The notes beneath the pieces are model-generated. The model worked only from the letters and a program-made list of their open reading frames with translations, was not told where the DNA came from and ran no database searches. A stretch of 64,000 bases of DNA from an uncultured Methylococcus sp. (GTDB lineage: Bacteria; Pseudomonadota; Gammaproteobacteria; Methylococcales; Methylococcaceae): positions 802-64,801 of the forward strand of contig CAYFOC010000001.1 of the NCBI GenBank assembly GCA_964344615.1, given 5' to 3'. The translations under genes were made by a program, and so were the position numbers. Within the stretch, counting starts at the first letter, position 1. Each line of letters begins with the position of its first letter. Positions 1 to 52,767 of this stretch are shown piece after piece.

Positions 1-1025
1 ATAAGGCACGGGTCAGGCTTCAGGCTTTAGTGACTGAAATCATGGAACGCCGCTCCAAGGAGCGCTCCGAAAGTCCTAACGTTTTCCAGACTCTGATTGA
101 TGCCGCCTATGAAGATGGCACGAAACTCACCCCTCATGAAATTACGGGGATGCTGATAGCGACCATTTTTGCTGGACACCACACAAGTTCAGGAACGACG
201 GCGTGGGTCCTGATCGAACTTCTAAGGCATCCTGAATGGATGGCGAAGGTGGTAGAAGAACTGGATCAGTTGTTTGGGAAGGACGGGGACGTCACGTTTG
301 AGTCCTTGCGTCAGATTCCGAATCTAGAAAGTGTTCTTAAGGAAGTTCTTCGTCTACATCCGCCTCTGATTATTCTGATGCGCAAGGTATTGGAGGATTT
401 CACGATCGGGGATACCACCATCCCGGCGGGCAAGTTTGTTTGTGCTGCGCCTGCAATCACTCATCGAATTGCGTCTTTGTTCCCCAATCCGGAACAGTTT
501 GACCCTGATCGATATTCTACAGAGCGCCAGGAGGACAAGAACCTTTATGCCTGGCAAGCGTTTGGTGGTGGACGTCACAAGTGTTCGGGGAACGCGTTCG
601 CACTCTTCCAGATCAAGGCGATCTTCTGCATCCTGCTTCGCCGTTATGAGTTTGAACTGGTCTCAGAAGCTGACACCTATCGCGACGACTATACGAAGAT
701 GGTGGTAGAGCCAGCATCCCCTTGCAAAGTTCGCTACAGGAGAAGGAAGACGACCCAGGAGGCCCTTGGCCAGGAACCCACAAATGGTTCAAAGGAAATA
801 AAGGATGAAGCCTCGCAAGGTGCAAGGATTGTTGTGGACATGGACCTTTGCAAGGGCCATGCAACCTGCATGGGAGAAGCGCCTGAACTCTTCAGAGTGG
901 ATGCAGAAGGGCAGTTGACCGTTTTGAATGATCGTCCGGATTCTGACCTCTTACCCAAGGCCAGAGCTGCTCAGCGTTATTGTCCCACCCAAGCCATCCG
1001 TATCGAAGGTGACGAGGGGGAGTAA
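1..1025 (+). CDS. cyp51: Sterol 14-alpha-demethylase (CYP51-type cytochrome P450) fused in frame to a C-terminal ferredoxin domain; the 5' end lies outside the window
   Basis: The frame is open from nt 3 with no stop upstream of the listed GTG at 30, so the window edge truncates the gene. Motifs: I-helix 'FAGHHTSSGT' (CYP51-type AGxHTS signature), ExxR 'EVLR', heme-thiolate loop 'FGGGRHKCSGNAF'. A polar linker 'RRRKTTQEALGQEPTNGSKEIKDEASQG' is followed by a ferredoxin module. Confidence 0.9.
   Translation, partial: KARVRLQALVTEIMERRSKERSESPNVFQTLIDAAYEDGTKLTPHEITGMLIATIFAGHHTSSGTTAWVLIELLRHPEWMAKVVEELDQLFGKDGDVTFESLRQIPNLESVLKEVLRLHPPLIILMRKVLEDFTIGDTTIPAGKFVCAAPAITHRIASLFPNPEQFDPDRYSTERQEDKNLYAWQAFGGGRHKCSGNAFALFQIKAIFCILLRRYEFELVSEADTYRDDYTKMVVEPASPCKVRYRRRKTTQEALGQEPTNGSKEIKDEASQGARIVVDMDLCKGHATCMGEAPELFRVDAEGQLTVLNDRPDSDLLPKARAAQRYCPTQAIRIEGDEGE
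822..1022 (+). other. Ferredoxin domain of the CYP51 fusion (3Fe-4S-like cysteine spacing)
   Basis: The last 67 aa are 'ARIVVDMDLCKGHATCMGEAPELF...RYCPTQAIRIEG'. The CxxHxxC...CP pattern is the one found in small actinobacterial-type ferredoxins and in the Methylococcus capsulatus CYP51-ferredoxin fusion (recalled, not aligned). Confidence 0.8.
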
Positions 1026-1029
1026 TTGA

Positions 1030-2208
1030 TCAGCTCAGCCGAGAATTGAGGTTGAGGCGGTAACGGCGGCCACGCCAATTGACTTCGCGTCGGATCCAGA
1101 TCTGAAGATAGATCAATGGTGCCGCCAGCCAGATGATCATGGAGCTCCAGGAGTACAGCCAGGGAATAGGCTGACCCGACATTCGATAGTGAAGGCTGTT
1201 GATGGTGAGGGGAACAGACAGCGCCGTAAGCAGCCCCAGCAGCAATATCCCCGGATTTCCGATAATAGCGCCATAACCAAACGCAAGGATGCCTGACCAA
1301 AGCGCAATTCCCGTCAGGGCGTGGGGAAGTTTGGTTGTCCAGAAGGGAAGGCCGGTGATGGAGAAAGCGATCCATCGGATCAAGATCCCGACGAAATCAA
1401 CAAAGGTGCAATCCTGCTGAATGATGGATACGGGCTTCGGAGCCAATAGATTCCGATAACCTTCCTCAACCATACGCCGACCAAGGTACATGTCGTCGAC
1501 CAATTGGCCTTCAGCAGTTTCGAGCCCGCCAATCGCAACGATGGCCTCTCTTCGAAGGACCATCATGTGCCCCATGATGAAGGGTAACGTTCCGCCATTA
1601 CGCTGAGCGGTCGCAAGGGCAGAGGGTTCATATAGTCCATTGACCATGACGGCATAGCCCGTGTCGCCAAGGGTATGCAAAGGGGCATTTGAGACCACTG
1701 TGGGAAAGGATGCACCAGCGCCTTCATCGGAGAGGAGTGTTGCCGCCAGGCGTTCAAGGTCCCCAGGCGACTGGCGGATATCTGAGTCCACGAAAGCAAT
1801 CAAGCTATGGTTTGCCTTTTCCATGGCTTTGATCATGGCATTGAGTTTGCCGGTGCGGTTGCGAGGTGGTTGGCCTGAAAAAAGGATTTCAGCTTCAGCA
1901 GGTAATCCAAGCTCAAGGCGCTCACGGATGACCGCTCTCACAATCGAGACTGCAGGGTCGAGATCATCATCAAAGACAAAAATTGTTTGGACCGGGCCAG
2001 AATAAGCATCTTCAAATCCTGCGATCACGTTTTCCCGAAGTCCGCTATCGACGTCTTTGATAGGGCGAATCACGGTCATCGAGGGGTAATGATCTGGGGT
2101 TGGAGGAAGTATGATCTTGGAGATCGCCAACCGTTGCGACATATAGAAAAACCAGACCCATCCAAGGAGGAGTCCCAGAGTAGCCAGAATGATCAAATTG
2201 ACGCTCAT
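1030..2208 (-). CDS. Integral-membrane family-2 glycosyltransferase, lipid-directed type (ceramide glucosyltransferase / HpnI-like)
   Basis: I moved the start to ATG 2208 (MSVNLIILATLGLLLGWVWFF, N-terminal TM) because the longer ORF (to 2292) overruns the stop of the upstream gene at 2219. Acidic motifs 'FVFDDDLD', 'FVDSDI', 'LVDDMYLG' and then 'LIRW' are followed by several C-terminal TM helices ending 'NWRGRRY'. The gene is convergent with cyp51, with only 4 nt between the stops. Confidence 0.75.
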   Translation of the reverse strand: MSVNLIILATLGLLLGWVWFFYMSQRLAISKIILPPTPDHYPSMTVIRPIKDVDSGLRENVIAGFEDAYSGPVQTIFVFDDDLDPAVSIVRAVIRERLELGLPAEAEILFSGQPPRNRTGKLNAMIKAMEKANHSLIAFVDSDIRQSPGDLERLAATLLSDEGAGASFPTVVSNAPLHTLGDTGYAVMVNGLYEPSALATAQRNGGTLPFIMGHMMVLRREAIVAIGGLETAEGQLVDDMYLGRRMVEEGYRNLLAPKPVSIIQQDCTFVDFVGILIRWIAFSITGLPFWTTKLPHALTGIALWSGILAFGYGAIIGNPGILLLGLLTALSVPLTINSLHYRMSGQPIPWLYSWSSMIIWLAAPLIYLQIWIRREVNWRGRRYRLNLNSRLS

Positions 2209-2218
2209 GGGGAATGTT

Positions 2219-2977
2219 TTATTTGGTGATCGAGGTAAGGAACTGGTTGTAAAAACCTTGGGCCACCCCCTTGCCTCCACGGGCGTTGGCAAGGGATACC
2301 TTGAGTTCCTCTTTGAGTTTCAGGTCAGAAAGCCTTGAGTCCGGTCTTATCGCGGCAAGATCCGCTCTTTCTAGAAATGGGAGTGCTTCCCCGGGTTCGC
2401 CTTCGTCCAGAAGGAAGTCCCCGTAGAAATAGTTGCTGTCCAGCCCATTGGGGAAGAGCCTGACGGCAGTTTCCAGATAGCTTTTCGCAATCTCATTGTC
2501 ACCGAATGAAATGGGCCAGCCGGGCAGCCTGTAATAGAGATTGCCAAGGATCACGTAAGCACTTCCGTCCATGGCCAAAGGATCGATAGCCAGCGCTCTT
2601 TCAACGAAGGATCGCGCTTTTTTGACGTGGCCTAGCGCGCTGAATCCTCCCTCATTGGCAGCCAAGGAGCATTGGATCAGTGCGGCAACGATCAAAGGTT
2701 CGGCCCGCTGAGGGAATTGTTGAATCAAGCTTTCCGCCTGGAGGCTCAATGGCTTGAGCAGTGCCAGCTGTTGATCTTCCGGCGTGGCGTAGAACGTGGT
2801 TTCCCACTGGTTCTTGATGATTTGAATGCTGGTAGGGTTCGGAACGTCTTCTGCCTGCGCGGGATGAATGAGGCTGACAAGGACTCCGAGGATGATGGCT
2901 GCGCGATTCAACGGACGCAGGACTTCTGCACGCTGTGTAGTCGAACTTGGGTAGGTAGGGCGGCCGATCTTGTGCAT
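2219..2977 (-). CDS. Secreted all-helical (TPR/TatT-like) protein, a paralogue of the lipoprotein at 6604-7407
   Basis: The signal peptide is 'AAIILGVLVSLIHPAQA/ED'. The C-terminal block 'ILGNLYYRLPGWPISFGDNEIAKSYLETAVRLFPNGLDSNYFYGDFLL' aligns by eye with 'LLGMLYLKAPPWPTGIGDGDKALSYLKEAVDHYGQHPLNHLFYAEALF' of the 267-aa protein. It lies 10 nt upstream of the GT2 gene, so the two are probably co-transcribed. Confidence 0.65.
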   Translation of the reverse strand: MHKIGRPTYPSSTTQRAEVLRPLNRAAIILGVLVSLIHPAQAEDVPNPTSIQIIKNQWETTFYATPEDQQLALLKPLSLQAESLIQQFPQRAEPLIVAALIQCSLAANEGGFSALGHVKKARSFVERALAIDPLAMDGSAYVILGNLYYRLPGWPISFGDNEIAKSYLETAVRLFPNGLDSNYFYGDFLLDEGEPGEALPFLERADLAAIRPDSRLSDLKLKEELKVSLANARGGKGVAQGFYNQFLTSITK

Positions 2978-3037
2978 GATGTTGAATCCCTGCGGGGGAT
3001 AGCGGGTTACTTGACCGACGATGCCTCGTCGAGCTCA

Positions 3038-3067
3038 ATAAAAAAACCCATGCACAGCATGGGTTTT
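3038..3067 (-). terminator. Rho-independent terminator ending the five-gene sterol operon
   Basis: The minus strand reads aaacccatgc-tgt-gcatgggttt followed by ttttttatt. This is a 10-bp perfect stem plus a U-tract, about 20 nt after the epoxidase stop (3089). Confidence 0.8.
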
Positions 3068-3088
3068 ATCGAGGCTGAAACCTCTGGG

Positions 3089-4582
3089 TTATTTCGCGAG
3101 CGCGCTCTGTTCCCGAATCCAGTGCTGCAGAGCAGTCTGAGGAATGCTCAGGCTCTTCTGGGCCAGTTTCAAAATGGACCTGAACCATCCGTATCCGGCA
3201 CCACGGCGCAGTTCGCTGGGCAGGAGTCGGAACGCTTGGAATACCACGACCACGAACTGCATGCCCATGGAAACGATGCTGCTATCCATGGTTGAGAGCA
3301 ATGCGAGGGAATGGGAGCGTCCCTTTGGATTGCTCTTCCAGTATTCGAAGATACAGCGGTTGAGCAATACGGACTCAGGAGTATGAGACAGGAAAGCCTC
3401 GCGCAATTCCTCAGAAAGAGTTCTGCGGGTGAGCTGTACGCGACCTGCCGCAATGGCGTAATCACGCAACGCTTTCTCGACATTCAGGTCGTGCTTGATA
3501 AGGGCATCACGGAGGCTCAACGCGTCCTTGACGGCGGTTGTAATGCCGGAGGCGGTTAGCGGATGACAGCAACCACGTGCATCCCCCAAAAGGGCCACGT
3601 TCATCTTCACGCTGCTTTTCGGGACAATCCGATAATTTGCGGCTGCCAACGGCTTGTCTCGCGCCATGGCAGCTTCGATGTCTTCCCGGAATGCCTTAGG
3701 GAAAGATTTGAGGTGTTCACGCACGGACTCTTTCGAGTCATCGCCTCTCAGCACTTCAAGCATGACGCGTGCACGTCCCTTTGAAACGCTGTAGGCATAG
3801 GAAATGCCGAGCGGATTTAGGAAAATATTGCCATGCTCGCGGGTCGGCAGGTGTCGATCATCGACTTCCACGCCCAACATGCCAGAGTAGCGGTGAGTTT
3901 CGTGGGAAATCCCAGTCAACTTGCGAACCTGAGACATACCTCCATCTGCGCCAATAATTAGCTTGGCGTTTACGCGGACATCTCCGTTTTCCGTGGACAC
4001 CACGGCAAAAGCAGTCTTTCCATCGCCCTCAGCAGTAATGGCCGTGACTCTTGGCCCCATCCACACGTCAACGCCATCGACTTTCTTTACCTTGTCGAGG
4101 AGATGATCCTTCAAGGCTTGGTGTTCAATGGCCATGCCGCCATGATCGAGGCCTTCGACTTCGCCATACGGCAAGACAACGTTGTCTTCGTACTCTTTTC
4201 CCTCATTGAAGGGGAAGATAGAGAATCCACGGATGATGGAGCCCAGTTCAGGCTTATCATCCAGCAAACCCAAGTGCTTTAGGCCATCAATCCCAGGCGG
4301 GTGAATGAGTTCCCCGGCGAGGCGGCGTCCGTGTGAGGACTTTGGTTCGATGATCAGAATCTTGAGGCCGAGCGGCGCGAGTGCGGCCGCAGCAGCGGAA
4401 CCGGCAACACCACCACCAGCGATAAGGACGTCAACGTCCACGGGAATATTCGCGTTATTTTCCATCATCAATCTGGTTGGACCCATCAAAGATTGAAGTA
4501 GCGAAGGTTGAAGGGCTTCGGATGAGGGGAATCCCCTCGTTTCGAAGCTATTGTGCCACAAAAAAGCAACAATCGTTGCCAA
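3089..4582 (-). CDS. Squalene monooxygenase (squalene epoxidase), FAD-dependent
   Basis: The dinucleotide fold is 'VDVLIAGGGVAGSAAAAALAPLGLKILIIEP'. The motif 'LLGDARGCCHPLTASGITTAV' matches the eukaryotic squalene-epoxidase motif GDAxNMRHPLTGGGMTV. The gene lies 9 nt downstream of the cyclase. The true start may be an internal Met (4486, 4468 or 4465), which would give a shorter N-terminus. Confidence 0.85.
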   Translation of the reverse strand: MATIVAFLWHNSFETRGFPSSEALQPSLLQSLMGPTRLMMENNANIPVDVDVLIAGGGVAGSAAAAALAPLGLKILIIEPKSSHGRRLAGELIHPPGIDGLKHLGLLDDKPELGSIIRGFSIFPFNEGKEYEDNVVLPYGEVEGLDHGGMAIEHQALKDHLLDKVKKVDGVDVWMGPRVTAITAEGDGKTAFAVVSTENGDVRVNAKLIIGADGGMSQVRKLTGISHETHRYSGMLGVEVDDRHLPTREHGNIFLNPLGISYAYSVSKGRARVMLEVLRGDDSKESVREHLKSFPKAFREDIEAAMARDKPLAAANYRIVPKSSVKMNVALLGDARGCCHPLTASGITTAVKDALSLRDALIKHDLNVEKALRDYAIAAGRVQLTRRTLSEELREAFLSHTPESVLLNRCIFEYWKSNPKGRSHSLALLSTMDSSIVSMGMQFVVVVFQAFRLLPSELRRGAGYGWFRSILKLAQKSLSIPQTALQHWIREQSALAK

Positions 4583-4591
4583 GCAACAACA

Positions 4592-6583
4592 TTAAACCCT
4601 TTGAATGTTGTGATTATACCGCGTCAAAGCCCAGACGGGGAAATATGTATGGTACAGACGGTAGTCCAGCATGGCCGCACCAAAAAACACACCATTAACG
4701 GCTTGCATGGGCCAGCTGCCATCCGTTTGCTGTTGCTTCAGAAGCCACACCATTCCATTTGCGATGGCTGGATGATCTGAAGGCAGAATATCCATCAGCG
4801 CCAGTAACGCCCAACTCGTCATGACCACCTGTGTTTCAGGATGCTCGATGTAGCGCTCTTCCAGGCAGCTCGTGTAATGCTCGCTCCATCCACCATCGTC
4901 CCTCTGGTGAGCGAGAAGAAATGCCGCTGCCTTCTGCATCAAGGGGTCATCAGCGCTCGTTCCTGAGGATCGGAGAGCTCTTACGGCGTGGAAAGTTGCA
5001 TAGGTGTAATTGATGCCCCAGAAACCCTGCCAGGAGCCATCTGCCTGCTGTTGGCTCTTCAACAAGCGAATGGCGCGCTGGGATGCCTCTTCAAGCCGGA
5101 CAGGCTCAAAATCCGGATCCAAATGCCGAAAGTGGCAGATGGCATCCAATGCTGAAGCCGTACACTCAATATAGGAGAGTTCCGTCATGCATTGACCGAA
5201 CATTTCAGAGGGATTGATCAGTTCCAGCAGCTTGCCGGCACGGCGCTGCTCGTAGGTGCCAAAACCCCCATCCTTGTTTTGTCTGGAAAGAATGAAGAGG
5301 ATGCCCTCACGCAGTCGATTGGGGTCAAACTTCGGGAGGTTGTGGTACGAGGGGCCCGTCTGGATGGTAATGATTCCGCTGATCGCCTCGGCCGTACAGT
5401 CGCTTACCGGCCATCGATGTTCGCCATCGGAAAAGCACCATCCTCCGGTCGCGGGGTCGCGCCAGTAGTTTTCGTATCCAGGTGCCTCATCACAGAGCTG
5501 TGCTCTGGACAAAAATGCAATTGCTTTTCCCATGGCGTCAACGGTGGATTCATCCGGTGACCTGATATTCGATACTGCCTGCAGGACAAATCCCGTATCC
5601 CAAGTATTTGAACGCGCGCCAACATATCGGAGTCCCTCATTTTCGTCCTCCCATCGCCAAGCCTCAACGCCCTGGATGCTCGGTTCAAGTTCGGGATGCT
5701 TTGAGTCGGCGACAAAAATTGCCAGCGTATTGAGAAGCCCATTGACCGGTGAAATGCCCTGATAGCATGTGGTCTTCTGCTCAAAAAGGATGCGATCAAG
5801 ACACACAGAGAGCGCCTTCTCACGAGTCTTCTTGCTGTGCCAGCGTTCAAAAATAGCCAGCCCATCGTAGATCAGCCGCAGCACCGGAGTGATCGGGACA
5901 TATACATCAGACTTGGCCAGTGCATGTCGCAGCTTCGAGAAGGGGATCTGATTGTAAGGCGTCGTATACAGTTCAGAACGGAGTGCTGAAACTAAGGGCT
6001 CAGGGAGATTGGCTACGAAACGCTTTCCACAAATGTAGGCCAGTCCAAGATAAATCAGACGGGTGTGGCAATAGAAGCGCCTTGGATGGAATGGGAGCCA
6101 TTCGGGCAGCAGAAACAGTTCAGGAGGAATGGCATTCAGACCCTTGTACTCATAGAGGCCAAGTATCGCGAGCCAAAACTTTCCCCAGGTCGGGATGCCC
6201 TCTACTCCAGTAGGTTGCTGGTGTAACCAGTTTCGTGCCCTCGATGCGACCGGGTGATCCGGCGCAACATCGATGAGTCGGAGTGCAACATACGCAAGGG
6301 TCGTGAAAAAAACATAGCCAGGCGATTCCGGGTGCATGCCCCAAGATCCGTCTTTGGCCTGTGTGACCTCGAAATGTTTGATGATCTTCTCGCGATCCGC
6401 CTGCGAGTAGGGTTGGCCGACGATCGTTCGCACAATGACAGCCTGTGCGAGGATCATGGTGCACCAGACCATTTCCCCCTCGAAATCTCCTCCTGTCTTT
6501 TGTTGCGAGAGAAGGTAACGAAGGGCTGCGTCCTGCGCTTGGGTTAACCGATCGTCTGTCAAAGGGGATATGGTTTCGGGCAT
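4592..6583 (-). CDS. osc: Oxidosqualene cyclase (lanosterol/cycloartenol synthase family)
   Basis: The protein is a 663-aa triterpene cyclase with QW repeats (e.g. 'QQADGSWQGFWG', 'QRDDGGWSEHY'). The catalytic motif is 'HRWPVSDCTAEAISG', i.e. VSDCTAE as in eukaryotic OSCs. No DxDDTA motif (squalene-hopene cyclase) is present. The gene is directly followed by the squalene epoxidase. Confidence 0.9.
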   Translation of the reverse strand: MPETISPLTDDRLTQAQDAALRYLLSQQKTGGDFEGEMVWCTMILAQAVIVRTIVGQPYSQADREKIIKHFEVTQAKDGSWGMHPESPGYVFFTTLAYVALRLIDVAPDHPVASRARNWLHQQPTGVEGIPTWGKFWLAILGLYEYKGLNAIPPELFLLPEWLPFHPRRFYCHTRLIYLGLAYICGKRFVANLPEPLVSALRSELYTTPYNQIPFSKLRHALAKSDVYVPITPVLRLIYDGLAIFERWHSKKTREKALSVCLDRILFEQKTTCYQGISPVNGLLNTLAIFVADSKHPELEPSIQGVEAWRWEDENEGLRYVGARSNTWDTGFVLQAVSNIRSPDESTVDAMGKAIAFLSRAQLCDEAPGYENYWRDPATGGWCFSDGEHRWPVSDCTAEAISGIITIQTGPSYHNLPKFDPNRLREGILFILSRQNKDGGFGTYEQRRAGKLLELINPSEMFGQCMTELSYIECTASALDAICHFRHLDPDFEPVRLEEASQRAIRLLKSQQQADGSWQGFWGINYTYATFHAVRALRSSGTSADDPLMQKAAAFLLAHQRDDGGWSEHYTSCLEERYIEHPETQVVMTSWALLALMDILPSDHPAIANGMVWLLKQQQTDGSWPMQAVNGVFFGAAMLDYRLYHTYFPVWALTRYNHNIQRV

Positions 6584-6603
6584 GTTGTTGGTGTTCGGGA
6601 GAG

Positions 6604-7407
6604 TTAGTGCGCAGCTTTGGTGATTTCGAGGATGACTTCGGCGAATTCTTTGTCCCAGATCACCCGGTTATAGCCCCAGGGGCCCTTGGCCAGAATGGTT
6701 TGGCCTCTTTGTATTTCTGCCTGAGCCTCTGTGGTTTTCTCATCCACCTCGAATAAGGCTTCCGCATAAAACAAGTGATTAAGTGGATGCTGACCGTAGT
6801 GGTCAACGGCTTCCTTAAGGTAAGACAGAGCCTTGTCCCCGTCACCGATGCCGGTCGGCCAGGGAGGGGCTTTCAGGTACAGCATTCCGAGCAGACGCAA
6901 CGGCCCCCCTTGATCAACGGCTTTCGAGAGTCGGGCGGCTGTCGTCAATTCATCTTCCAGGCGATGTAGGTTCTCAGCCGCCTGCACAGGGTGGTTGTTG
7001 ATGGCGAGGCCCAAGTTGGCAGCCAGATAATAGTGAACAGCCGCATCCTCCTTGCCGCCATTTGACAGGGCTCGTTCGGCAAGTTTCACGCCTTCGGCGG
7101 CGAGAGCTTCCCGGTCAGGTCCTGTAGGAAGTCTTTCAGCCAGATGCAGGGCAATTTCCGAAGATCGTGAAGATCGGATGAAGGCAGGCGTCGTGGATTT
7201 CCGCGCCAAATTCATCGCACACTGGAGATCCTCCGTTGATGTAGATGGACCAAGCGATGAAGATTCGGACAGTAGCTTTTCTTCTGTGATGTCTGCGCAA
7301 TTCCCATGCCCTACAAGGGCAACGATGCGATTGGGAAGGGCACTACAGGCGGAGAGAAGGGTCAGGGTCAGAAGCAAGCTGACCCGGTAACTCATGTGCA
7401 TCATCAA
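6604..7407 (-). CDS. bstC: Helical-repeat (TatT/TPR-like) lipoprotein, a BstC-like putative sterol-binding envelope protein
   Basis: The lipoprotein signal has the lipobox 'LTLLSAC'. The helical C-terminal block is shared with the 2219-2977 protein. Its start overlaps the stop of the upstream binding-protein gene (TGATG/TTGA at 7402-7407). The BstC assignment comes from family and context only. Confidence 0.6.
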   Translation of the reverse strand: MMMHMSYRVSLLLTLTLLSACSALPNRIVALVGHGNCADITEEKLLSESSSLGPSTSTEDLQCAMNLARKSTTPAFIRSSRSSEIALHLAERLPTGPDREALAAEGVKLAERALSNGGKEDAAVHYYLAANLGLAINNHPVQAAENLHRLEDELTTAARLSKAVDQGGPLRLLGMLYLKAPPWPTGIGDGDKALSYLKEAVDHYGQHPLNHLFYAEALFEVDEKTTEAQAEIQRGQTILAKGPWGYNRVIWDKEFAEVILEITKAAH

Positions 7408-8246
7408 TGACTCTTGTTCCAGAGGCTAATCATGGGATTAATTGCGGCAGGCGAAGCGGGGACAAAGGCGTCTATGGCAAACAGACCGCACAATTTCATC
7501 CCATCAGGGTCCTTGCAGAGGTTTGCAAGGGACTTTGCAAACCGTGCGCGCTCGTCGCTGGTGCTGGACTCCTGATTGGCCACGAGCCCCATCAATGGCA
7601 AGGGCGCCGAGGTGAAGACCGAGTCCAGTTCATGAGTCAAAGGAAGCGACCCGAGTGCAGCGAATTGCTGTCCATTGAGCAGTACCGCATCCAGTTCACC
7701 CTTGTCCAGAGCGCGCAAAGCACGGATAGCTTGTTTGCTGGCTTTAAGCTGAAAGTCTTGTTCTGGATTGATTTTCCCGGCGAACACAATTTTGCGGATA
7801 AAGCCTGCTTCCTCGAAAACCGTCCCGCCGATCGTTTTGCCCTTGAGGTCATCGAGTGAAGCAAAGCGTCCCTTTATCGCCACAAGATGAAACTGCTCTG
7901 TCGTTTCTCCGCGCATCTTGGGTTGGACGACGGGTTCAAGGTGAAGGCTGTCACGCTGCTCCAAAAAGATGCCCAGTGAGGTAATCGCGAATGCGGGATT
8001 ATTTTCGTTCAGAAGTTTCTTGCAACCCTCGACATCCGAAGAGAAGCTGCTGCTGAAGGTATTGGCAGGCCATCCTCCAACCCGTTCCACCACACTGAGC
8101 ATTGCAGACATCGCCTTATTGGCATCGTCTTCGCTCACGGGGCCACCCGGGTAGCAGACGACAACCGTTGAGGAAGCCGCAATCGTTGCGCCTGAAAAGA
8201 CGATTCCGATGATCAGGAGGATATTTCGAACAGATTGAAAGCTCAT
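7404..8246 (-). CDS. bstB: Periplasmic substrate-binding protein (PhnD-like type-2 PBP fold), BstB-like
   Basis: The signal/anchor is 'ILLIIGIVFSGATIAASS'. A PBP-like 'LDDLKGKTIGGT' segment is present. The gene lies 6 nt after the RND gene and overlaps the start of the next gene. No ABC permease or ATPase is nearby, so it is not a classical ABC importer component. Confidence 0.6.
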   Translation of the reverse strand: MSFQSVRNILLIIGIVFSGATIAASSTVVVCYPGGPVSEDDANKAMSAMLSVVERVGGWPANTFSSSFSSDVEGCKKLLNENNPAFAITSLGIFLEQRDSLHLEPVVQPKMRGETTEQFHLVAIKGRFASLDDLKGKTIGGTVFEEAGFIRKIVFAGKINPEQDFQLKASKQAIRALRALDKGELDAVLLNGQQFAALGSLPLTHELDSVFTSAPLPLMGLVANQESSTSDERARFAKSLANLCKDPDGMKLCGLFAIDAFVPASPAAINPMISLWNKSH

Positions 8247-8252
8247 TGCGAT

Positions 8253-10937
8253 TTATTTTTTCCGACGGGTAACAAGGATCAGTCCGATAGCGGGTGCGAT
8301 GAACAGCGTGGATGCGAGACAACTCAGGAGACCTATGGTGATATCAATACCCAGTCCCGAAACGCCTCGGTAGCTTGCCAATGTGATGGCGCCAAGTCCC
8401 GCGAGTTCCGTTCCGGCTGCGAGCAGAATGACGCGGCCTGCATCCAGTGCAATGCCGACCGGATCCCGACCCTCAAGGGCCATCCAACGATGACTGAGCC
8501 AGACGCCATAATCGACCGCCAACGCAATCACGAGTGGCAAAGCGATGATATTGGCGTAATTGTAGTGCAGCCCAGCGACTTTCATCACGCCAAGCATCCA
8601 TCCTCCGCCAATTACAAGCGGCAGAGCTGCCATCAATATGCCTTTAGGGGACCGAATGACGAAGCATAGCCAAGCCAGACAGACGAGGATGGCGGCTTTG
8701 GTTCCATGGCTGAAACTACTGACTACGGCCTTGGAGAAGACCTGATGCGTTGAGGGGAAGCCGGTTGCATCGGGAGAAACGGAGTACACCTCCTTCATCA
8801 GATCATCGAGGTTGTTCGGGTCATAGACACTTTTTGCAGGGTAGGCGTAGGCAGCCAGGGTGCCATCGGGCGCAACAAACCGCTCTCTTATTCCATCGGG
8901 CAGATCCGAAGGTGACAGCGGGGTGGTTTTTTGCCATCTTGAAACGGTCTCGAGGCCATGAGTGGCTGAAGCGATAAGTGCTCTGAGGAAAGCCTCTGAG
9001 CGTGCGCGACCTGAATCTGGCTCTTCTTCCAGGCGAATGAGGATGTCATTCATGTCCTTGTGGAGCGCCTCTATGCGGCTGACCAGCTCCTTGTTGCCCG
9101 AACTAAACGCCTGTTCTTCGTAGTCCTCAAGTTTTTCAATGGCCAAACGAAGGCTCTGACGAATCTTGAAGAACGTGGGTTCATCAAGGCCCTGATTGCT
9201 CAGTGTCAGGAGATGCTGACGTAGGACAGGTCTTGCGGCGAGCGATCCCAGACGATGCGCCTGCTCGATGCGTTCAGATCCATCGGCTGGGAAGAAACTG
9301 CTGATGGACTGCACTTTGGCTATCGTGGGGAGCTGCTGAGCGCCTTCTGTGATTCTCCGAATATCTTCTAACGTCTTGGCCGTGAAGATGATGATTTCGG
9401 ACTGATAATCTGTCTCTGTGACCAGCTTTCGTTGATATTCGGCGGCTTTGGAGTCTTTGGGGAGCAAAGACAAGACGTCGTAATCAAATTCCATGTCCAG
9501 ACCGGCATGGATGCCGAAAATGGCTCCGCCGGACGCGATCAGCACCAGGGCAAGCGCGACACTCCTGGGGAGTGTCGGTGACGTGGCGTCAACCTTTTTT
9601 ACCTTCTTCGCCTTCATTTTAGGAGGGAAGAGGGCATAGACGGCGGGCTGAACGACCCATGTGCTGATGAGGATCAGAAGAACACCACCTGCAGCGATGA
9701 TGCCGAGTTCTGCAAATCCCGGGAATTCGACCGTTGCCAGCGTTCCAAAGATGAAGAGGGATGCGCCACCGGCGGTTATGACGGCTGGAAAGGAATCGCG
9801 TATCCCAGTGCCGATCGCGTCCAAAAGCGGTAATCCTGAACGCCTGGCTTCGGCAATTTGTGAGGTCGTGAAAATGCCATAGTCCGCGCCGAGGCCAAAA
9901 AGGATGGCGAGGAAGCTCGATGTGATGATGGTGAGATGGCCCACGGTCAAATAGGCGAAGCCAAGACTCCAAAGTGCACCCAGACCCATCGGGATGAAAA
10001 TCGCAAGCGCCCACGGAACACTTCTGACGACGAGGAAAATGAGTGCGCCGATCAATCCCGCAGCGGTCCAGATGACCATCTTGATATCCCGTTCGATATC
10101 GATGTACTCCTCGTAGGCGATCGCAGGCAATCCGGTCAGAACGACATTCGGGGCCTTCAGGCCTTTTGCTTCAAAGTCATGGGCAAGTTCTCCGGCTGCC
10201 TTCTGAACTTTTTCATTCAGAGGCGCCAGCGTCTCAAAGTCTTCCCCCTTGGCCTTGGCATGAACGAAAACCAAAAGCATTCGGCCATCGTGCGAGGTGA
10301 AATACCCTTTGCCCAGTTGCTCAGCGCCAATGGCTTTGAGGATTTCTTCGAAATTGATATCTGCGCTTGAGGGCGGGTTGTTCAGCCAGCGTTGCCATTC
10401 CTGAAGAAACGCATCCGCCGCTTTCATACCGGTCAATGCCGCTTGAATATCCGGGGTATCAGAATCGGCCCCCGCATTGCTTGATGAGGCCAGCGCCATC
10501 AAGGATTCAAGGGACGCTCCTTTGATCGTGGATCCGGCCTGAAGCGCTTTTTCGAGCTGATCAAGCTGATCTTCTGGCAGCAAGAGGTAAAGATGGTCGT
10601 GCAAGAAGCTCGTGTCGATGCGATCTGTGGCTTGCGCAATTTCAGGGAGACTTCTTAGCTTGACTGCCAGTTCATGGGCAAAGGATTCCAGATCTTCGCG
10701 CGGAGCATTCTCAAGGATCACCACCAGGTCCGAGGAAGCACCGAAGGTGTCGAGATACTGGTTCAGTCGGTGCGCAACCTCCGTGTTCTGTGGCAACAAG
10801 GCCTGCCTTGATGTGTAAACCGGCAGGTGTGTCGCAGCAAGGATGGCAGCGAGTGAAATCAATAAGGCTCCGGAGAGAACCCACCAGGGGTGACGGGCGG
10901 AACCAAGGCTCAGGCGATAAACGAGAGTTTTCAGCAT
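8253..10937 (-). CDS. bstA: RND-superfamily inner-membrane transporter of the HpnN/MmpL type, BstA-like putative sterol exporter
   Basis: The 894-aa protein has two 6-TM bundles ('...ILFGLGADYGIF...' and '...VIALAVDYGVWLSH...'), each preceded by a large periplasmic loop. This is the typical HpnN/MMPL architecture. It is the first gene of the operon that ends with the cyclase and epoxidase. Confidence 0.7.
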   Translation of the reverse strand: MLKTLVYRLSLGSARHPWWVLSGALLISLAAILAATHLPVYTSRQALLPQNTEVAHRLNQYLDTFGASSDLVVILENAPREDLESFAHELAVKLRSLPEIAQATDRIDTSFLHDHLYLLLPEDQLDQLEKALQAGSTIKGASLESLMALASSSNAGADSDTPDIQAALTGMKAADAFLQEWQRWLNNPPSSADINFEEILKAIGAEQLGKGYFTSHDGRMLLVFVHAKAKGEDFETLAPLNEKVQKAAGELAHDFEAKGLKAPNVVLTGLPAIAYEEYIDIERDIKMVIWTAAGLIGALIFLVVRSVPWALAIFIPMGLGALWSLGFAYLTVGHLTIITSSFLAILFGLGADYGIFTTSQIAEARRSGLPLLDAIGTGIRDSFPAVITAGGASLFIFGTLATVEFPGFAELGIIAAGGVLLILISTWVVQPAVYALFPPKMKAKKVKKVDATSPTLPRSVALALVLIASGGAIFGIHAGLDMEFDYDVLSLLPKDSKAAEYQRKLVTETDYQSEIIIFTAKTLEDIRRITEGAQQLPTIAKVQSISSFFPADGSERIEQAHRLGSLAARPVLRQHLLTLSNQGLDEPTFFKIRQSLRLAIEKLEDYEEQAFSSGNKELVSRIEALHKDMNDILIRLEEEPDSGRARSEAFLRALIASATHGLETVSRWQKTTPLSPSDLPDGIRERFVAPDGTLAAYAYPAKSVYDPNNLDDLMKEVYSVSPDATGFPSTHQVFSKAVVSSFSHGTKAAILVCLAWLCFVIRSPKGILMAALPLVIGGGWMLGVMKVAGLHYNYANIIALPLVIALAVDYGVWLSHRWMALEGRDPVGIALDAGRVILLAAGTELAGLGAITLASYRGVSGLGIDITIGLLSCLASTLFIAPAIGLILVTRRKK

Positions 10938-11065
10938 GAAAAGTGATGCACAGTCGCAAAAATGGAATGGAAACTATTCTGCAAGAGCAGGTGTCTCACC
11001 CGGAGTGAGTGTCACGGGGGGCCCTGTGGCTCGCACTCATATTAACGGCGATAGAGAGAATACTC

Positions 11066-11470
11066 ATGATTAACCTTTACGGGCCAGCCATTGTTAAGGG
11101 TATTGGGCTTTTTCTGACCCTCTACTTCATTCATGTGGTCCTTTTGCCCCAGTTGGTAGGTGAATCGGCAGCAACCGGGGATTATCAGGGCTTATTGTAT
11201 GGGATCAATCAGCTCCTTGGATTGGCTACCTGCATGATTCCTGGTTTTATGGCTGCAAGAATGGCCGGACATCACGGCTTTCTTCATGGATTGCTGGTCG
11301 GAGGGATCAGCACGGTCCTGACCGCGTTGATGGCGATGCTGTGGTCGATCATTACCGGTGCAAAGTTTTTTGGACTCGAGATGCTTCCCTTCTGGCTCGT
11401 GATGAATGGGTTCCTATCGGCATTCGCAGGTCTTCTTGCGACGAACATGACCGAATCTGAAGAGGAATAA
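11066..11470 (+). CDS. Small integral membrane protein (about 4 TM helices), function unknown
   Basis: This is a hydrophobic ORF, 'MINLYGPAIVKGIGLFLTLYFIHVVLLP...'. ATG 11066 is preferred over GTG 11009. It is divergent from the sterol operon. Confidence 0.5.
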   Translation: MINLYGPAIVKGIGLFLTLYFIHVVLLPQLVGESAATGDYQGLLYGINQLLGLATCMIPGFMAARMAGHHGFLHGLLVGGISTVLTALMAMLWSIITGAKFFGLEMLPFWLVMNGFLSAFAGLLATNMTESEEE

Positions 11471-51567: not shown

Positions 51568-51615
51568 GGATCTTTTGCTACGTGCTTTTGCGCTAATGGG
51601 ATCGTCATATCAGAA

Positions 51616-51637
51616 AGCCCCTACGAGGGTAGGGGCT
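51616..51637. repeat. Perfect 9-bp-arm inverted repeat in the divergent DHCR24/sdmB-like control region
   Basis: The repeat agcccctac-gagg-gtaggggct lies 49 nt upstream of the DHCR24-like ATG (51567, minus) and 54 nt upstream of ATG 51691 (plus). Confidence 0.6.
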
Positions 51638-51690
51638 TCCTCTGTTGTGCCATGTTACCATTAGAGAAATTGCGCGAATATTCAGGAACC

Positions 51691-52701: not shown

Positions 52702-52767
52702 CGCCCTTATTCCCGAGACGGACTTTTTTGTTTTCCTGTCCCCTATTCAGATGATACGGAGTGCCCC

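What the first reader, a model, noticed from the sequence alone, without database searches (positions are those of the whole stretch)
1030..2977. Uncharacterised two-gene module inside the sterol cluster: a secreted paralogue of the sterol-operon lipoprotein plus a lipid-type GT2 glycosyltransferase
A separate bicistron sits between cyp51 and the epoxidase terminator (genes 10 nt apart).

Gene 1 (252 aa) has a cleavable Sec signal (AQA/ED) but no lipobox. It shares a long C-terminal block with the 267-aa lipoprotein of the sterol operon:
- 252-aa protein: LGNLYYRLPGWPISFGDNEIAKSYLETAV...NYFYGDFLL
- 267-aa lipoprotein: LGMLYLKAPPWPTGIGDGDKALSYLKEAV...NHLFYAEALF

So it is a soluble periplasmic paralogue of the putative outer-membrane sterol receptor.

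Gene 2 is a polytopic GT2 with the D/DxD/D/xxRW layout of ceramide glucosyltransferases and hopanoid HpnI. No hpnJ/hpnK-type partners are present.

The placement suggests a sterol head-group modification, such as a steryl glycoside, coupled to a dedicated periplasmic carrier. I am not aware of any described bacterial de novo sterol producer with such a system. The GT2 stop lies only 4 nt from the convergent cyp51 stop, with no terminator between them.
Basis: partly seen in the sequence, partly recalled or inferred. Interest (0 to 1): 0.8.

Follow-up and report, generated by a model that had tools for sequence, protein, structure and literature searches.

The report
Lipid glycosyltransferase–carrier pair in sterol cluster
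Between the sterol-making genes of an uncultured methane-oxidising bacterium sits a conserved two-gene unit, a membrane enzyme that attaches sugar to a lipid and a secreted relative of bacterial lipid-carrier proteins; it is a good but unproven candidate for making and exporting sugar-tagged sterols.

Summary
Window 2977-2219 (-) encodes a 252-aa Sec-secreted, non-lipidated all-helical protein. Ten nt downstream, 2208-1030 (-) encodes a 392-aa polytopic GT2/GT21 enzyme with intact D / DSD / VDD / RW motifs. It ends 4 nt from the convergent cyp51 stop, and a conserved terminator follows the epoxidase gene.

- **The 252-aa protein** is a remote homologue of BstC, not a close paralogue. Sequence homology covers one 73-residue block (hhalign 95%, E 4e-8). 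The whole predicted fold is nearest BstC and the fatty-acid-binding TatT proteins.
- **The GT2** aligns over its full length with ceramide glucosyltransferase and scores far below the HpnI cut-off.
- **The pair is conserved only in Methylococcaceae.** It lies inside the sterol cluster in some lineages, once with no terminator after the epoxidase gene. In others it sits next to housekeeping genes, and one equally related sterol cluster lacks it.
- **Across phyla**, 39 of 81 GT2 loci have an adjacent secreted START protein, TatT-like protein or MMPL/RND exporter.
- **Three Myxococcaceae MAGs** independently place the GT2 between HMG-CoA reductase/MMPL and epoxidase/squalene synthase/cyclase genes.

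My best reading is an accessory module that glycosylates a lipid and carries it across the periplasm. The sterol acceptor is plausible but unproven; hopanoid or glycerolipid acceptors remain open.

The parts
2219..2977 (-). Gene 1: 252-aa secreted all-alpha TPR-like protein of the TatT/BstC lipid-binding superfamily
   Evidence: ORF. Pfam finds only TPR families. AF2 pLDDT 85; Foldseek top hits are BstC 7T1S, Es_TatT 8G52/8G53 and TatT 3U64. There are 372 homologues.
2852..2977 (-). Sec signal peptide (aa 1-42, cleavage AQA/ED), no lipobox. A possible alternative TTG start lies at codon 23.
   Evidence: Read directly from the sequence. Family-wide, 103 of 120 members have an N-terminal hydrophobic region and 4 of 120 a lipobox-like motif.
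2396..2614 (-). The block homologous to BstC (aa 122-194), including the invariant LGNLYYRLPGWPISFGD loop
   Evidence: hhalign 95%, E 3.6e-8; BLASTP E 4e-8. The BstC residues lining the docked-sterol cavity (L167, M170, L171, K174, A175, P176) fall in this block (PMC10942540).
2209..2218 (-). 10-nt spacer between the two genes (operon junction)
   Evidence: In relatives the junction is 0-55 nt between stop-to-stop ORFs, with a 4-nt overlap of the called genes in L166.
1030..2208 (-). Gene 2: 392-aa polytopic GT2/GT21 lipid-type glycosyltransferase. N-terminal TM at aa 3-23, catalytic domain at about aa 40-265, C-terminal hydrophobic segments at aa 268-372.
   Evidence: Pfam Glyco_transf_21, 74.7 bits. 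HpnI 99 bits against a cut-off of 310. PDB ceramide glucosyltransferase E 3e-21 over the full length. Hydropathy.
1780..1788 (-). DSD (DxD) nucleotide-sugar/metal-binding motif, aa 141-143
   Evidence: Invariant in 17 homologues. Aligns with the CDS motif of ceramide glucosyltransferase.
1492..1500 (-). VDD motif (third catalytic Asp), aa 237-239
1372..1377 (-). RW of the (Q/R)xxRW motif, aa 278-279
3043..3067 (-). Intrinsic terminator after the squalene epoxidase gene. It separates the pair from the bstABC-osc-sqmo operon in this lineage.
   Evidence: 11-bp stem followed by a T-run. The stem is conserved and the loop varies in L001-4, L013, L086 and L087. It is absent in L166.
3089..10937 (-). 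Context: bstA (8253-10937), bstB (7404-8246), bstC (6604-7407), osc (4592-6583), squalene epoxidase (3089-4582)
30..1025 (+). Context: 3' part of the cyp51-ferredoxin fusion, convergent with the GT2 gene, with stops 4 nt apart

Best explanation
The pair is an accessory 'glycosylate and carry' module for a membrane lipid. In this lineage it has been recruited to the sterol cluster.

Step 1 (inferred from family membership): the inner-membrane GT21-type enzyme uses a nucleotide sugar on the cytoplasmic face to put a hexose on the hydroxyl of a membrane lipid. Here the acceptor is most probably the 3-OH of the C-4-methylated sterols made by the flanking osc/sqmo/cyp51 genes.

Step 2 (inferred): after flipping, the glycolipid, or its sterol precursor, is bound in the periplasm by the soluble TatT/BstC-like protein. 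That protein shuttles it towards the outer membrane, in parallel with BstB/BstC for free sterols.

Shown: gene structure, secretion signal, fold family, catalytic motifs, operon conservation and genomic associations. Not shown: the acceptor, the sugar, and any ligand of the 252-aa protein.
For: 1. The GT2 is a full-length homologue of ceramide glucosyltransferase with all catalytic motifs. Its nearest prokaryotic named family is HpnI, which acts on a cyclic triterpenoid.

2. A GT21 enzyme can accept sterols: cotton glucosylceramide synthase made sterol glucoside in yeast (Hillig 2003, as cited in PMC3355633).

3. The 252-aa protein's fold is nearest BstC, which binds sterols, and Es_TatT, which binds palmitate. 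The shared block contains the BstC cavity residues.

4. The pair is kept as an operon in 11 species-level Methylococcaceae genomes and 8 metagenome loci.

5. It is embedded between sqmo and cyp51 in the window, L001-4, L013, L087 and L166. L086 shows the same cluster but ends just after the TPR gene. Divergence of the pair (GT2 68-79%) parallels that of the sterol genes (OSC 65-76%). In L166 there are 53 nt and no terminator after sqmo.

6. Independent linkage: in the Myxococcaceae MAG L029 the order is HMG-CoA reductase, MMPL, GT2, then sqmo (opposite strand), SQS and OSC. L063 and L066 show MMPL, GT2, sqmo and OSC in the same order. In an NJ tree these GT2s fall far from the methanotroph clade.

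7. In L122 the TPR homologue is directly upstream of cyp51-fdx.

8. Of 81 GT2 loci, 39 have an adjacent same-strand partner: a secreted START protein (18), a TatT-like protein (11) or an MMPL/RND exporter (10, including a bona fide HpnN).

9. Acid-labile sterol conjugates with no known enzyme exist in Enhygromyxa salina (PMC10202945).
Against: - The pair also occurs away from any sterol gene within 10 kb, in L005-9, L015 and L088-95.
- L167 has the same cluster without the pair.
- Methylococcus sp. ANG/Mc7 and Ca. Methylocalor carry the GT2 without the TPR gene, next to an MBL-fold or OlsE-like hydroxylase gene.
- The TPR family is mostly stand-alone, for example in Methylocaldum szegediense and a Methylomonas MAG.
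- Neither gene is in the published sterol-producer-specific gene list, and no M. capsulatus homologue appears among the top 120 hits.
- In this window a conserved terminator separates the pair from the sterol operon.
- Characterised bacterial GT21 enzymes (Pgt) use diacylglycerol (PMC8231724).
- TM-scores to BstC are only 0.54-0.59.
- The E. salina conjugates run with free sterols on silica, which argues against simple glycosides there.
Confidence: 0.42

Rival explanations
1. Hopanoid head-group glycosylation. The GT2 is an HpnI-like enzyme acting on bacteriohopanepolyols, which Methylococcaceae also make. The periplasmic protein would carry hopanoids. The position in the sterol cluster would reflect shared triterpenoid regulation rather than the substrate.
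For: HpnI is the best NCBIfam match for every GT2 tested, at 99-132 bits. In Gemmatimonadota loci the GT2 is immediately followed by an RND gene that passes the HpnN cut-off, 778 against 752 bits. The pair occurs outside sterol clusters in several methanotroph lineages.
Against: All scores are far below the HpnI cut-off of 310. No hpnJ, hpnK, hpnH or shc was found next to the pair or among the window ORFs tested. No shc/osc-like gene lies within 10 kb in the non-sterol loci. Where a triterpenoid gene is adjacent in methanotrophs and Myxococcaceae, it is a sterol gene (sqmo, osc, cyp51), not a hopanoid gene.
Confidence: 0.2
2. A general membrane glycolipid synthase, such as a Pgt-like diacylglycerol enzyme, or one acting on ceramide or another polar lipid, perhaps for phosphate-sparing remodelling. 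Its partner would be a lipid or fatty-acid carrier. Insertion into the sterol cluster would be incidental gene-order drift.
For: The only biochemically characterised bacterial GT21 enzymes use DAG (PMC8231724). TatT proteins bind long-chain fatty acids (PMC11713862). The pair sits among housekeeping genes in many lineages. In Methylocalor the GT2 follows an OlsE-like lipid hydroxylase gene with a 2-nt gap. Many Myxococcota GT2s sit with START and GH38 genes and no sterol genes.
Against: Sterol-cluster embedding occurred twice in distant GT2 clades. It has persisted while the cluster diverged to about 65% identity. It lacks a terminator in L166. There is also a TPR-cyp51 adjacency in L122.
Confidence: 0.22
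3. A processive oligo- or polysaccharide synthase with a periplasmic TPR scaffold, analogous to PgaC/PgaA, BcsA/BcsC or Alg8/AlgK. In this reading it is not a lipid system at all.
For: The (Q/R)xxRW motif is shared with processive beta-glycosyltransferases. There are weak hits to cellulose synthase (E about 1e-3) and NodC/PgaC. TPR proteins are common partners of such synthases (my own background knowledge).
Against: The full-length match is to ceramide glucosyltransferase (E 3e-21), against E 1e-3 for BcsA. There is no porin, PilZ or export partner nearby. The TPR protein's nearest structures are lipid-binding TatT/BstC, and none of AlgK, PgaA or BcsC appears in the top 50. In other phyla the partners are START or MMPL proteins, which are lipid-related.
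Confidence: 0.06

Closest known systems
BstC (Methylococcus capsulatus sterol-binding outer-membrane lipoprotein, PDB 7T1S; NCBIfam NF045602)
   Same: All-alpha TPR-like fold, and the top Foldseek hit. Shares the LGxLYxxxPxWPxxxGD block that lines the docked-sterol cavity. Periplasmic location. Encoded in the same sterol cluster.
   Different: No lipobox, so it is soluble. Only 73 alignable columns, and 33.9 bits against a cut-off of 350. Not part of bstABC. Paired with a glycosyltransferase. Its family is mostly found outside sterol clusters.
TatT / TRAP-T component proteins (Tp0956 3U64; Enhygromyxa Es_TatT 8G52/8G53), which bind long-chain fatty acids
   Same: Foldseek ranks 3-5. Shares the superfamily loop signature LGxLY...GD. 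About a quarter of TatTs lack TRAP partners (PMC11713862).
   Different: No Pfam TAtT hit and no TRAP P/Q/M genes nearby. The PxWP form of the loop is shared with BstC rather than with the TatTs.
Eukaryotic ceramide glucosyltransferase (UGCG/GCS, CAZy GT21)
   Same: Full-length alignment including the N-terminal anchor, the D1/D2/D3/(R)xxRW motifs and the C-terminal membrane region. Cotton GCS also makes sterol glucoside.
   Different: A bacterial enzyme with remote full-length similarity (78.7 bits to the PDB ceramide glucosyltransferase). No evidence of sphingolipid synthesis genes nearby. Operon-coupled to a periplasmic protein.
HpnI (TIGR03472), bacteriohopanetetrol N-acetylglucosaminyltransferase
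   Same: The best-scoring prokaryotic named family, with the same architecture. Its acceptor is a cyclic triterpenoid lipid.
   Different: 99 bits against a cut-off of 310. No hpnJ/hpnK partners. Flanked by sterol genes, not hopanoid genes.
Pgt processive GT21 glycosyltransferases of Agrobacterium and Mesorhizobium
   Same: Bacterial GT21 lipid glycosyltransferases.
   Different: Their acceptor is diacylglycerol. No dedicated periplasmic partner has been reported, and they are not linked to triterpenoid genes.
Helicobacter pylori cholesteryl glucosides (cited in PMC10202945) and, from my own knowledge, the GT4 cholesterol alpha-glucosyltransferase that makes them
   Same: A bacterial steryl glycoside.
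   Different: GT-B fold, GT4 family (from my own knowledge). Uses host cholesterol, not a de novo sterol. No carrier partner.
Triterpenoid export systems BstABC and HpnN with the proposed periplasmic shuttles HpnM/HpnS/HpnT (bioRxiv 10.1101/2025.07.29.667474)
   Same: The logic of an inner-membrane component plus a soluble periplasmic lipid shuttle. Relatives of this GT2 sit next to HpnN or MMPL genes.
   Different: Here the inner-membrane partner is a glycosyltransferase, not a transporter.

Membership tests
BstC (NCBIfam NF045602 equivalog) | Profile score at or above the curated cut-off (350 bits) | tested here: not met
   33.9 bits, E 2.3e-8, aa 113-194 only. The window's own BstC scores 306.7.
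BstC (NCBIfam NF045602 equivalog) | Lipoprotein signal peptide (lipobox Cys) | tested here: not met
   No Cys in the N-terminal 60 aa. Only 4 of 120 family members have a lipobox-like motif.
BstC (NCBIfam NF045602 equivalog) | Encoded within the bstA-bstB-bstC operon | tested here: not met
   It lies downstream of osc-sqmo and, in the window, after a terminator.
BstC (NCBIfam NF045602 equivalog) | Binds C-4 methyl sterols | not testable with these tools
   Needs pull-down or MST assays as in PMC10942540.
TatT-like superfamily (Pfam PF16811 / structures 3U64, 8G52, 8G53, 7T1S) | Sequence match to the Pfam TAtT model | tested here: not met
   No TAtT hit at E<=0.1; only TPR families match.
TatT-like superfamily (Pfam PF16811 / structures 3U64, 8G52, 8G53, 7T1S) | All-alpha TPR-like fold closest to the solved members | tested here: met
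   Foldseek ranks 1-5 are 7T1S, 8G52, 8G53 and 3U64, with E 5e-4 to 1e-3 and TM 0.48-0.74. Model pLDDT is 85.
TatT-like superfamily (Pfam PF16811 / structures 3U64, 8G52, 8G53, 7T1S) | Signature loop LGxLY..P...GD between two helical hairpins | tested here: met
   Invariant L144, G145, Y148, P152, W154, P155 and G159. Aligned to BstC and to 8G52/8G53.
TatT-like superfamily (Pfam PF16811 / structures 3U64, 8G52, 8G53, 7T1S) | Neighbouring TRAP P/Q/M genes | tested here: not met
   None in the first 16 kb of the window or in related loci. About 25% of TatTs also lack them.
CAZy GT21 / Pfam Glyco_transf_21 (ceramide glucosyltransferase-like) | Pfam score above the gathering threshold | tested here: met
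   74.7 bits against 21.7.
CAZy GT21 / Pfam Glyco_transf_21 (ceramide glucosyltransferase-like) | D1, D2 (DxD), D3 and (Q/R)xxRW catalytic motifs | tested here: met
   D80/81, D141-S-D143, D238/D239 and R278-W279 are invariant. They align with the ceramide glucosyltransferase structure sequence.
CAZy GT21 / Pfam Glyco_transf_21 (ceramide glucosyltransferase-like) | N-terminal anchor plus C-terminal membrane segments | tested here: met
   Hydropathy segments at aa 1-24, 266-290, 297-340 and 354-372. The alignment to 26qf spans profile positions 13-386.
CAZy GT21 / Pfam Glyco_transf_21 (ceramide glucosyltransferase-like) | Ceramide as acceptor | not testable with these tools
   An enzyme assay is needed.
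HpnI (TIGR03472 equivalog) | Profile score at or above 310 bits | tested here: not met
   99.4 bits. Relatives score 102-132 bits.
HpnI (TIGR03472 equivalog) | Genomic association with hpnJ/hpnK/hpnH/shc | tested here: not met
   None next to the pair or among the 20 window ORFs tested beyond 16 kb. None in the flanks of related loci by tblastn with OSC.
Steryl glycoside synthase (functional class) | Transfers sugar to the sterol 3-OH | not testable with these tools
   Only genomic linkage is available.
Processive GT2 exopolysaccharide synthase with TPR scaffold (BcsA/BcsC, PgaC/PgaA) | Match to a synthase family, plus a porin or export partner | tested here: not met
   NodC 14.7 bits. BcsA E about 1e-3. 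No porin gene. None of AlgK, PgaA or BcsC is in the Foldseek top 50.

The most novel reading that the evidence does not exclude
A GT21-type enzyme encoded inside bacterial sterol clusters glycosylates de novo bacterial sterols. This arrangement evolved independently in Methylococcaceae and Myxococcaceae. A dedicated soluble TatT/BstC-like or START-domain periplasmic protein, or an MMPL pump, then carries the steryl glycoside to the outer membrane. This would be the first biosynthetic and trafficking route for conjugated sterols in bacteria that make their own sterols.
Probability: 0.3. Interest if true: 0.8.

Novelty: new variant of a known kind. Interest (0 to 1): 0.6.

Why it matters
The function of bacterial sterols is still unknown, and no enzyme that conjugates de novo bacterial sterols has been identified, although acid-labile conjugates have been reported (PMC10202945).

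This GT21-type family is the first concrete, cloneable candidate. It lies inside sterol clusters in two phyla, and it is habitually paired with periplasmic lipid-binding proteins or MMPL/RND exporters. It could be tested directly in the existing E. coli sterol-production system.

Even if the acceptor turns out to be another lipid, two things stand. First, coupling of a GT21 glycosyltransferase to a secreted START protein, TatT-like protein or MMPL exporter is frequent: 39 of 81 loci across Pseudomonadota, Myxococcota, Gemmatimonadota and other phyla. I found no description of this outer-membrane glycolipid pathway. Second, it extends the TatT/BstC lipid-carrier superfamily to a large new soluble subfamily.

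Glycosylated sterols would also affect how extractable and bound sterol pools are interpreted in biomarker work.

Tried and rejected
1. **Recent duplication of bstC.** Rejected. Only a 73-column block aligns, and the TPR252 family HMM hits BstC at only E 1e-5 to 1e-6.

2. **The similarity is generic TPR noise.** Considered because consensus-TPR designs outscore BstC in sequence searches. Rejected because those alignments gap out the PGWPISF loop that BstC shares, and because structure search puts BstC and the TatTs first.

3. **HpnI orthology.** Rejected on score and synteny.

4. **The TPR-GT2 pairing is universal for this GT2 family.** Rejected. The TPR partner is confined to Methylococcaceae. 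Elsewhere the partner is START or MMPL/RND.

5. **The pair always travels with sterol genes.** Rejected.

6. **Identifying the organism and context by exact-protein look-up of P0001 and P0229.** Neither is on record. The listing of cluster members gave no name for the window's proteins.

7. **A sigma-70 promoter upstream of gene 1.** None was found in the window. A conserved TATAAAAT-containing box exists only in relatives.

8. **Whole-genome co-occurrence of the GT2 with osc.** Tetranucleotide similarity between L167 and L006/L015/L095 (r 0.945-0.956) is only suggestive that genomes with a pair-less sterol cluster carry the pair elsewhere.

9. **Crude ORF clustering in high-GC Myxococcota loci.** It produced spurious antisense ORF clusters (cluster 1), which I ignored.


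Full report
**1. What is in the sequence**

On the minus strand the first 11 kb of the window reads as follows:
- bstA (10937-8253), bstB (8246-7404), bstC (7407-6604), oxidosqualene cyclase (6583-4592) and squalene epoxidase (4582-3089).
- An intrinsic terminator at 3067-3043, with an 11-bp stem and a T-run.
- A 252-aa ORF (2977-2219), a 10-nt spacer, and a 392-aa ORF starting at ATG 2208 and ending at 1030.
- Four nt beyond that is the stop of a convergent cyp51-ferredoxin fusion.

NCBIfam recognises BstA, BstB and BstC, although BstA and BstC fall somewhat below their equivalog cut-offs. The one exception is the terminator, whose stem-loop is at 3043-3067.

Its nearest relatives are freshwater Methylococcaceae / 'Pseudomonadota' MAGs.

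**2. Gene 1**

The product starts with a long n-region, an h-region (AAIILGVLVSLI) and AQA/ED, with no cysteine. In the family, 103 of 120 homologues have an N-terminal hydrophobic segment and only 4 have a lipobox-like motif. The window's BstC, in contrast, has LLSAC. So gene 1 encodes a soluble periplasmic protein.

Pfam sees only TPR families.

The relationship to BstC is statistically real but local:
- BLASTP gives E 4e-8 over 52 residues.
- The BstC equivalog profile gives E 2e-8 but 33.9 bits against a cut-off of 350.
- PDB BstC 7T1S gives E 7e-6.
- Comparing a 56-sequence family alignment with a 32-sequence BstC alignment gives 95% probability and E 3.6e-8, over 73 columns only (aa 122-194 against BstC 151-223).

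Consensus-TPR designer proteins score higher in sequence searches. However, their alignments delete the loop LPGWPISFG, which is invariant in the family and matches BstC's APPWPTGIG.

The BstC profile shows that the surrounding LGxLY...GD signature is shared with the TatT proteins 8G52 and 8G53.

An AlphaFold2 model (pLDDT 85, ten helices after the signal peptide) finds its best PDB neighbours in this order: BstC 7T1S, Es_TatT 8G52/8G53, and T. pallidum TatT 3U64 (TM 0.48-0.74).

According to PMC10942540 and PMC11713862, BstC binds C-4 methyl sterols and the TatTs bind long-chain fatty acids. Both use a hydrophobic cavity whose BstC residues (L167, M170, L171, K174, A175, P176) fall in the shared block.

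Conclusion: gene 1 is a member of a new, soluble subfamily of the TatT/BstC lipid-binding superfamily. It is not a close BstC paralogue.

**3. Gene 2**

Family matches:
- Pfam Glyco_transf_21 scores 74.7 bits.
- The best NCBIfam hit is HpnI at 99 bits, against a cut-off of 310.
- A family profile aligns over its full length with ceramide glucosyltransferase structures at E 3e-21. Cellulose synthases reach only about 1e-3.

D80/81, D141-S-D143, D238/239 and R278-W279 are invariant. Hydropathy gives an N-terminal anchor and C-terminal membrane segments. The enzyme is therefore an intact GT21-type lipid glycosyltransferase and not an HpnI orthologue.

Among the 20 longest non-overlapping ORFs tested in window 16-64 kb there are no hopanoid side-chain genes. 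Those ORFs are housekeeping genes, plus a diverged sdmB/sdmA pair at 51.6-53.9 kb.

**4. Comparative genomics of the GT2**

A scan of species-representative genomes returned 79 loci. Searches with the window's proteins and with family HMMs, an NJ tree and Pfam/NCBIfam annotation of neighbours show the following.

- (a) The Methylococcaceae GT2s form one clade, and the TPR partner occurs only there (11 loci).
- (b) In L001-4 and L013 (GT2 77-79% identity) the whole arrangement bstABC-osc-sqmo-TPR-GT2-convergent-cyp51 is conserved.
- (c) In L005-9 and L015 (56-61%) the pair is intact but no sterol gene lies within 10 kb. In L006, L007 and L015 the neighbours are citrate synthase and malic enzyme.
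- (d) Methylococcus sp. ANG/Mc7 and Ca. Methylocalor have the GT2 without the TPR gene.
- (e) Outside the methanotrophs, 18 loci have a secreted START/SRPBCC protein immediately adjacent. About 20 loci have a GH38 neighbour. Ten have an adjacent same-strand MMPL/RND gene, which in Gemmatimonadota passes the HpnN cut-off.
- (f) Three Myxococcaceae MAGs place a distant GT2 of this family inside a sterol cluster. L029, annotated by Pfam, reads HMG-CoA reductase, MMPL, GT2, squalene epoxidase (opposite strand), squalene synthase, cyclase. L063 and L066 match by tblastn and clustering.

In total, 39 of 81 loci couple the GT2 to a periplasmic lipid-binding-type protein or a lipid exporter.

**5. Comparative genomics of the TPR protein**

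A metagenome scan gave 80 loci.
- Relatives at 69% identity or more are in the sterol cluster.
- Those at 46-60% are paired with the GT2 but lack sterol genes. Six of these loci have an OEP gene upstream.
- Most at 48% or less are stand-alone. Methylocaldum szegediense and a Methylomonas MAG are examples.
- One locus (L122) has the homologue directly upstream of cyp51-ferredoxin on the same strand.
- A marine group has it in tandem with a BstC-like gene and HMG-CoA reductase. It follows genes for a T_hemolysin-family protein, an AMP-binding enzyme, a heme-oxygenase-like protein and an SDR.

**6. Is the pair part of the sterol cluster?**

Two further clusters, about equally diverged from the window (OSC 65-68%, BstA 60%), settle this.
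- L166 has the pair embedded (GT2 68%, TPR 66%). Only 53 nt, with no terminator-like site, separate it from the epoxidase gene. The 3' ends of the GT2 and cyp51 genes overlap by 26 nt.
- L167 has the identical cluster without the pair, and a bidirectional terminator between the epoxidase gene and cyp51.

L167 comes from the same lake metagenome as L006. By tetranucleotide composition it is closest to L006, L015 and L095, which carry the pair elsewhere. This hints at relocation rather than loss, but it is not proof.

In the window's own sub-lineage the terminator after the epoxidase gene is conserved: the stem is kept and the loop varies. Relatives carry a conserved TATAAAAT-containing box before the TPR gene that the window lacks. 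In the window no sigma-70-like promoter was detected. The pair is thus an accessory module. It is long associated with the sterol cluster in one methanotroph clade, transcriptionally fused to it in at least one lineage, and separable from it in others.

**7. Literature**

- I found no paper describing a glycosyltransferase or this TPR protein in bacterial sterol clusters.
- The BstABC papers do not mention it.
- A 2026 comparative list of genes specific to sterol-producing methanotrophs contains neither gene.
- Enhygromyxa salina has acid-labile sterol conjugates of unknown origin, although they co-elute with free sterols.
- Characterised bacterial GT21 enzymes (Pgt) glycosylate diacylglycerol.
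- A plant GT21 glucosylceramide synthase also makes sterol glucoside.
- Periplasmic shuttles have been proposed for hopanoids.

**8. Mechanism and verdict**

The best-supported model is a two-step module.
- A cytoplasm-facing GT21 enzyme glycosylates a membrane lipid.
- A soluble TatT/BstC-like periplasmic protein binds the lipid for delivery to the outer membrane.

I rate the general model, lipid glycosyltransferase plus lipid carrier, at roughly 0.7. This rests on fold and family assignments and on the recurrent START/TatT-like/MMPL coupling.

I rate sterol as the acceptor in this lineage at about 0.4. It is favoured by two independent embeddings in sterol clusters, co-divergence with the cluster, the terminator-less junction in L166, and the TPR-cyp51 adjacency in L122. 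It is weakened by the many sterol-unlinked occurrences and by the pair-less cluster L167. Hopanoid and glycerolipid acceptors are the main rivals. A polysaccharide synthase is unlikely.

The finding is real. It is a new variant built from known parts, and it gives a directly testable candidate for bacterial sterol conjugation.

Noticed in passing
window 51559-53925 (+), with 49957-51567 (-) upstream: A diverged SdmB-like gene (305 bits, cut-off 600) and SdmA-like gene (385 bits, cut-off 600) lie about 48 kb from the bst-osc-sqmo cluster, next to a gene for an FAD lactone-oxidase-like protein. The C-4 demethylase genes are therefore unlinked from the main sterol cluster here.
   Followed up: partly
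window 6604-10937 (-): The window's BstA (1273 bits against 1400) and BstC (307 against 350) fall below the NCBIfam equivalog cut-offs, while BstB passes. Automatic annotation would probably not name them.
   Followed up: no
L135-L165 (marine metagenome loci), e.g. L158 4047-10879: Marine relatives of the 252-aa protein (35-37% identity) sit in a conserved gene string: T_hemolysin family, AMP-binding enzyme, heme-oxygenase-like protein, SDR, the TPR252-like gene, a BstC-like gene, then HMG-CoA reductase. This looks like an uncharacterised lipid or isoprenoid cluster with two TatT-like proteins.
   Followed up: partly
L122 1738-4186: A 239-aa homologue of the 252-aa protein lies about 145 nt upstream of a cyp51-ferredoxin fusion on the same strand, with no GT2.
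   Followed up: yes
L011, L014, L016-18, L021-24, L026, L032, L035, L036, L041, L044, L045, L057, L077 (around position 9200-11200 in most): In Myxococcota and other phyla the GT21-type gene is immediately adjacent to a gene for a roughly 220-aa secreted START/SRPBCC protein, usually just upstream. In about 20 loci it is also flanked by a GH38 alpha-mannosidase-like gene.
   Followed up: partly
L029 6076-15631; also L063 and L066: Myxococcaceae MAGs have a sterol cluster in the order HMG-CoA reductase, MMPL, GT21-type GT2, squalene epoxidase (opposite strand), squalene synthase, oxidosqualene cyclase. A GT1-type glycosyltransferase gene and a CAAX-protease gene lie upstream.
   Followed up: yes
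L071-L073, L079 (Gemmatimonadota): A GT2 homologue is followed directly by an RND gene. The L072 copy, the only one tested, passes the HpnN hypothetical-equivalog cut-off (778 against 752 bits). In most of these loci a conserved ORF with no Pfam match precedes the GT2.
   Followed up: partly
L001-4, L013, L086, L087: intergenic region between sqmo and the TPR gene; window 2978-3088: Relatives share the terminator stem and a conserved promoter-like box...TTCCC..N..GA(T/C)TATA(A/G)AATG.... The window lacks the box. Its intergenic region is shorter and its TPR protein has a longer N-terminus.
   Followed up: partly
L166 16277-16302; window 1026-1029: The convergent GT2 and cyp51 genes are 4 nt apart in the window and overlap by 26 nt in L166, with no terminator between them. 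L167, which lacks the pair, has a clear bidirectional terminator at the equivalent place.
   Followed up: partly
L082 9171-11218 (Ca. Methylocalor cossyra): The GT2 homologue is preceded, with a 2-nt gap, by a gene for an FA_hydroxylase / OlsE-like lipid hydroxylase, inside an exosortase-type polysaccharide gene region. The TPR homologue of that genome is elsewhere.
   Followed up: no
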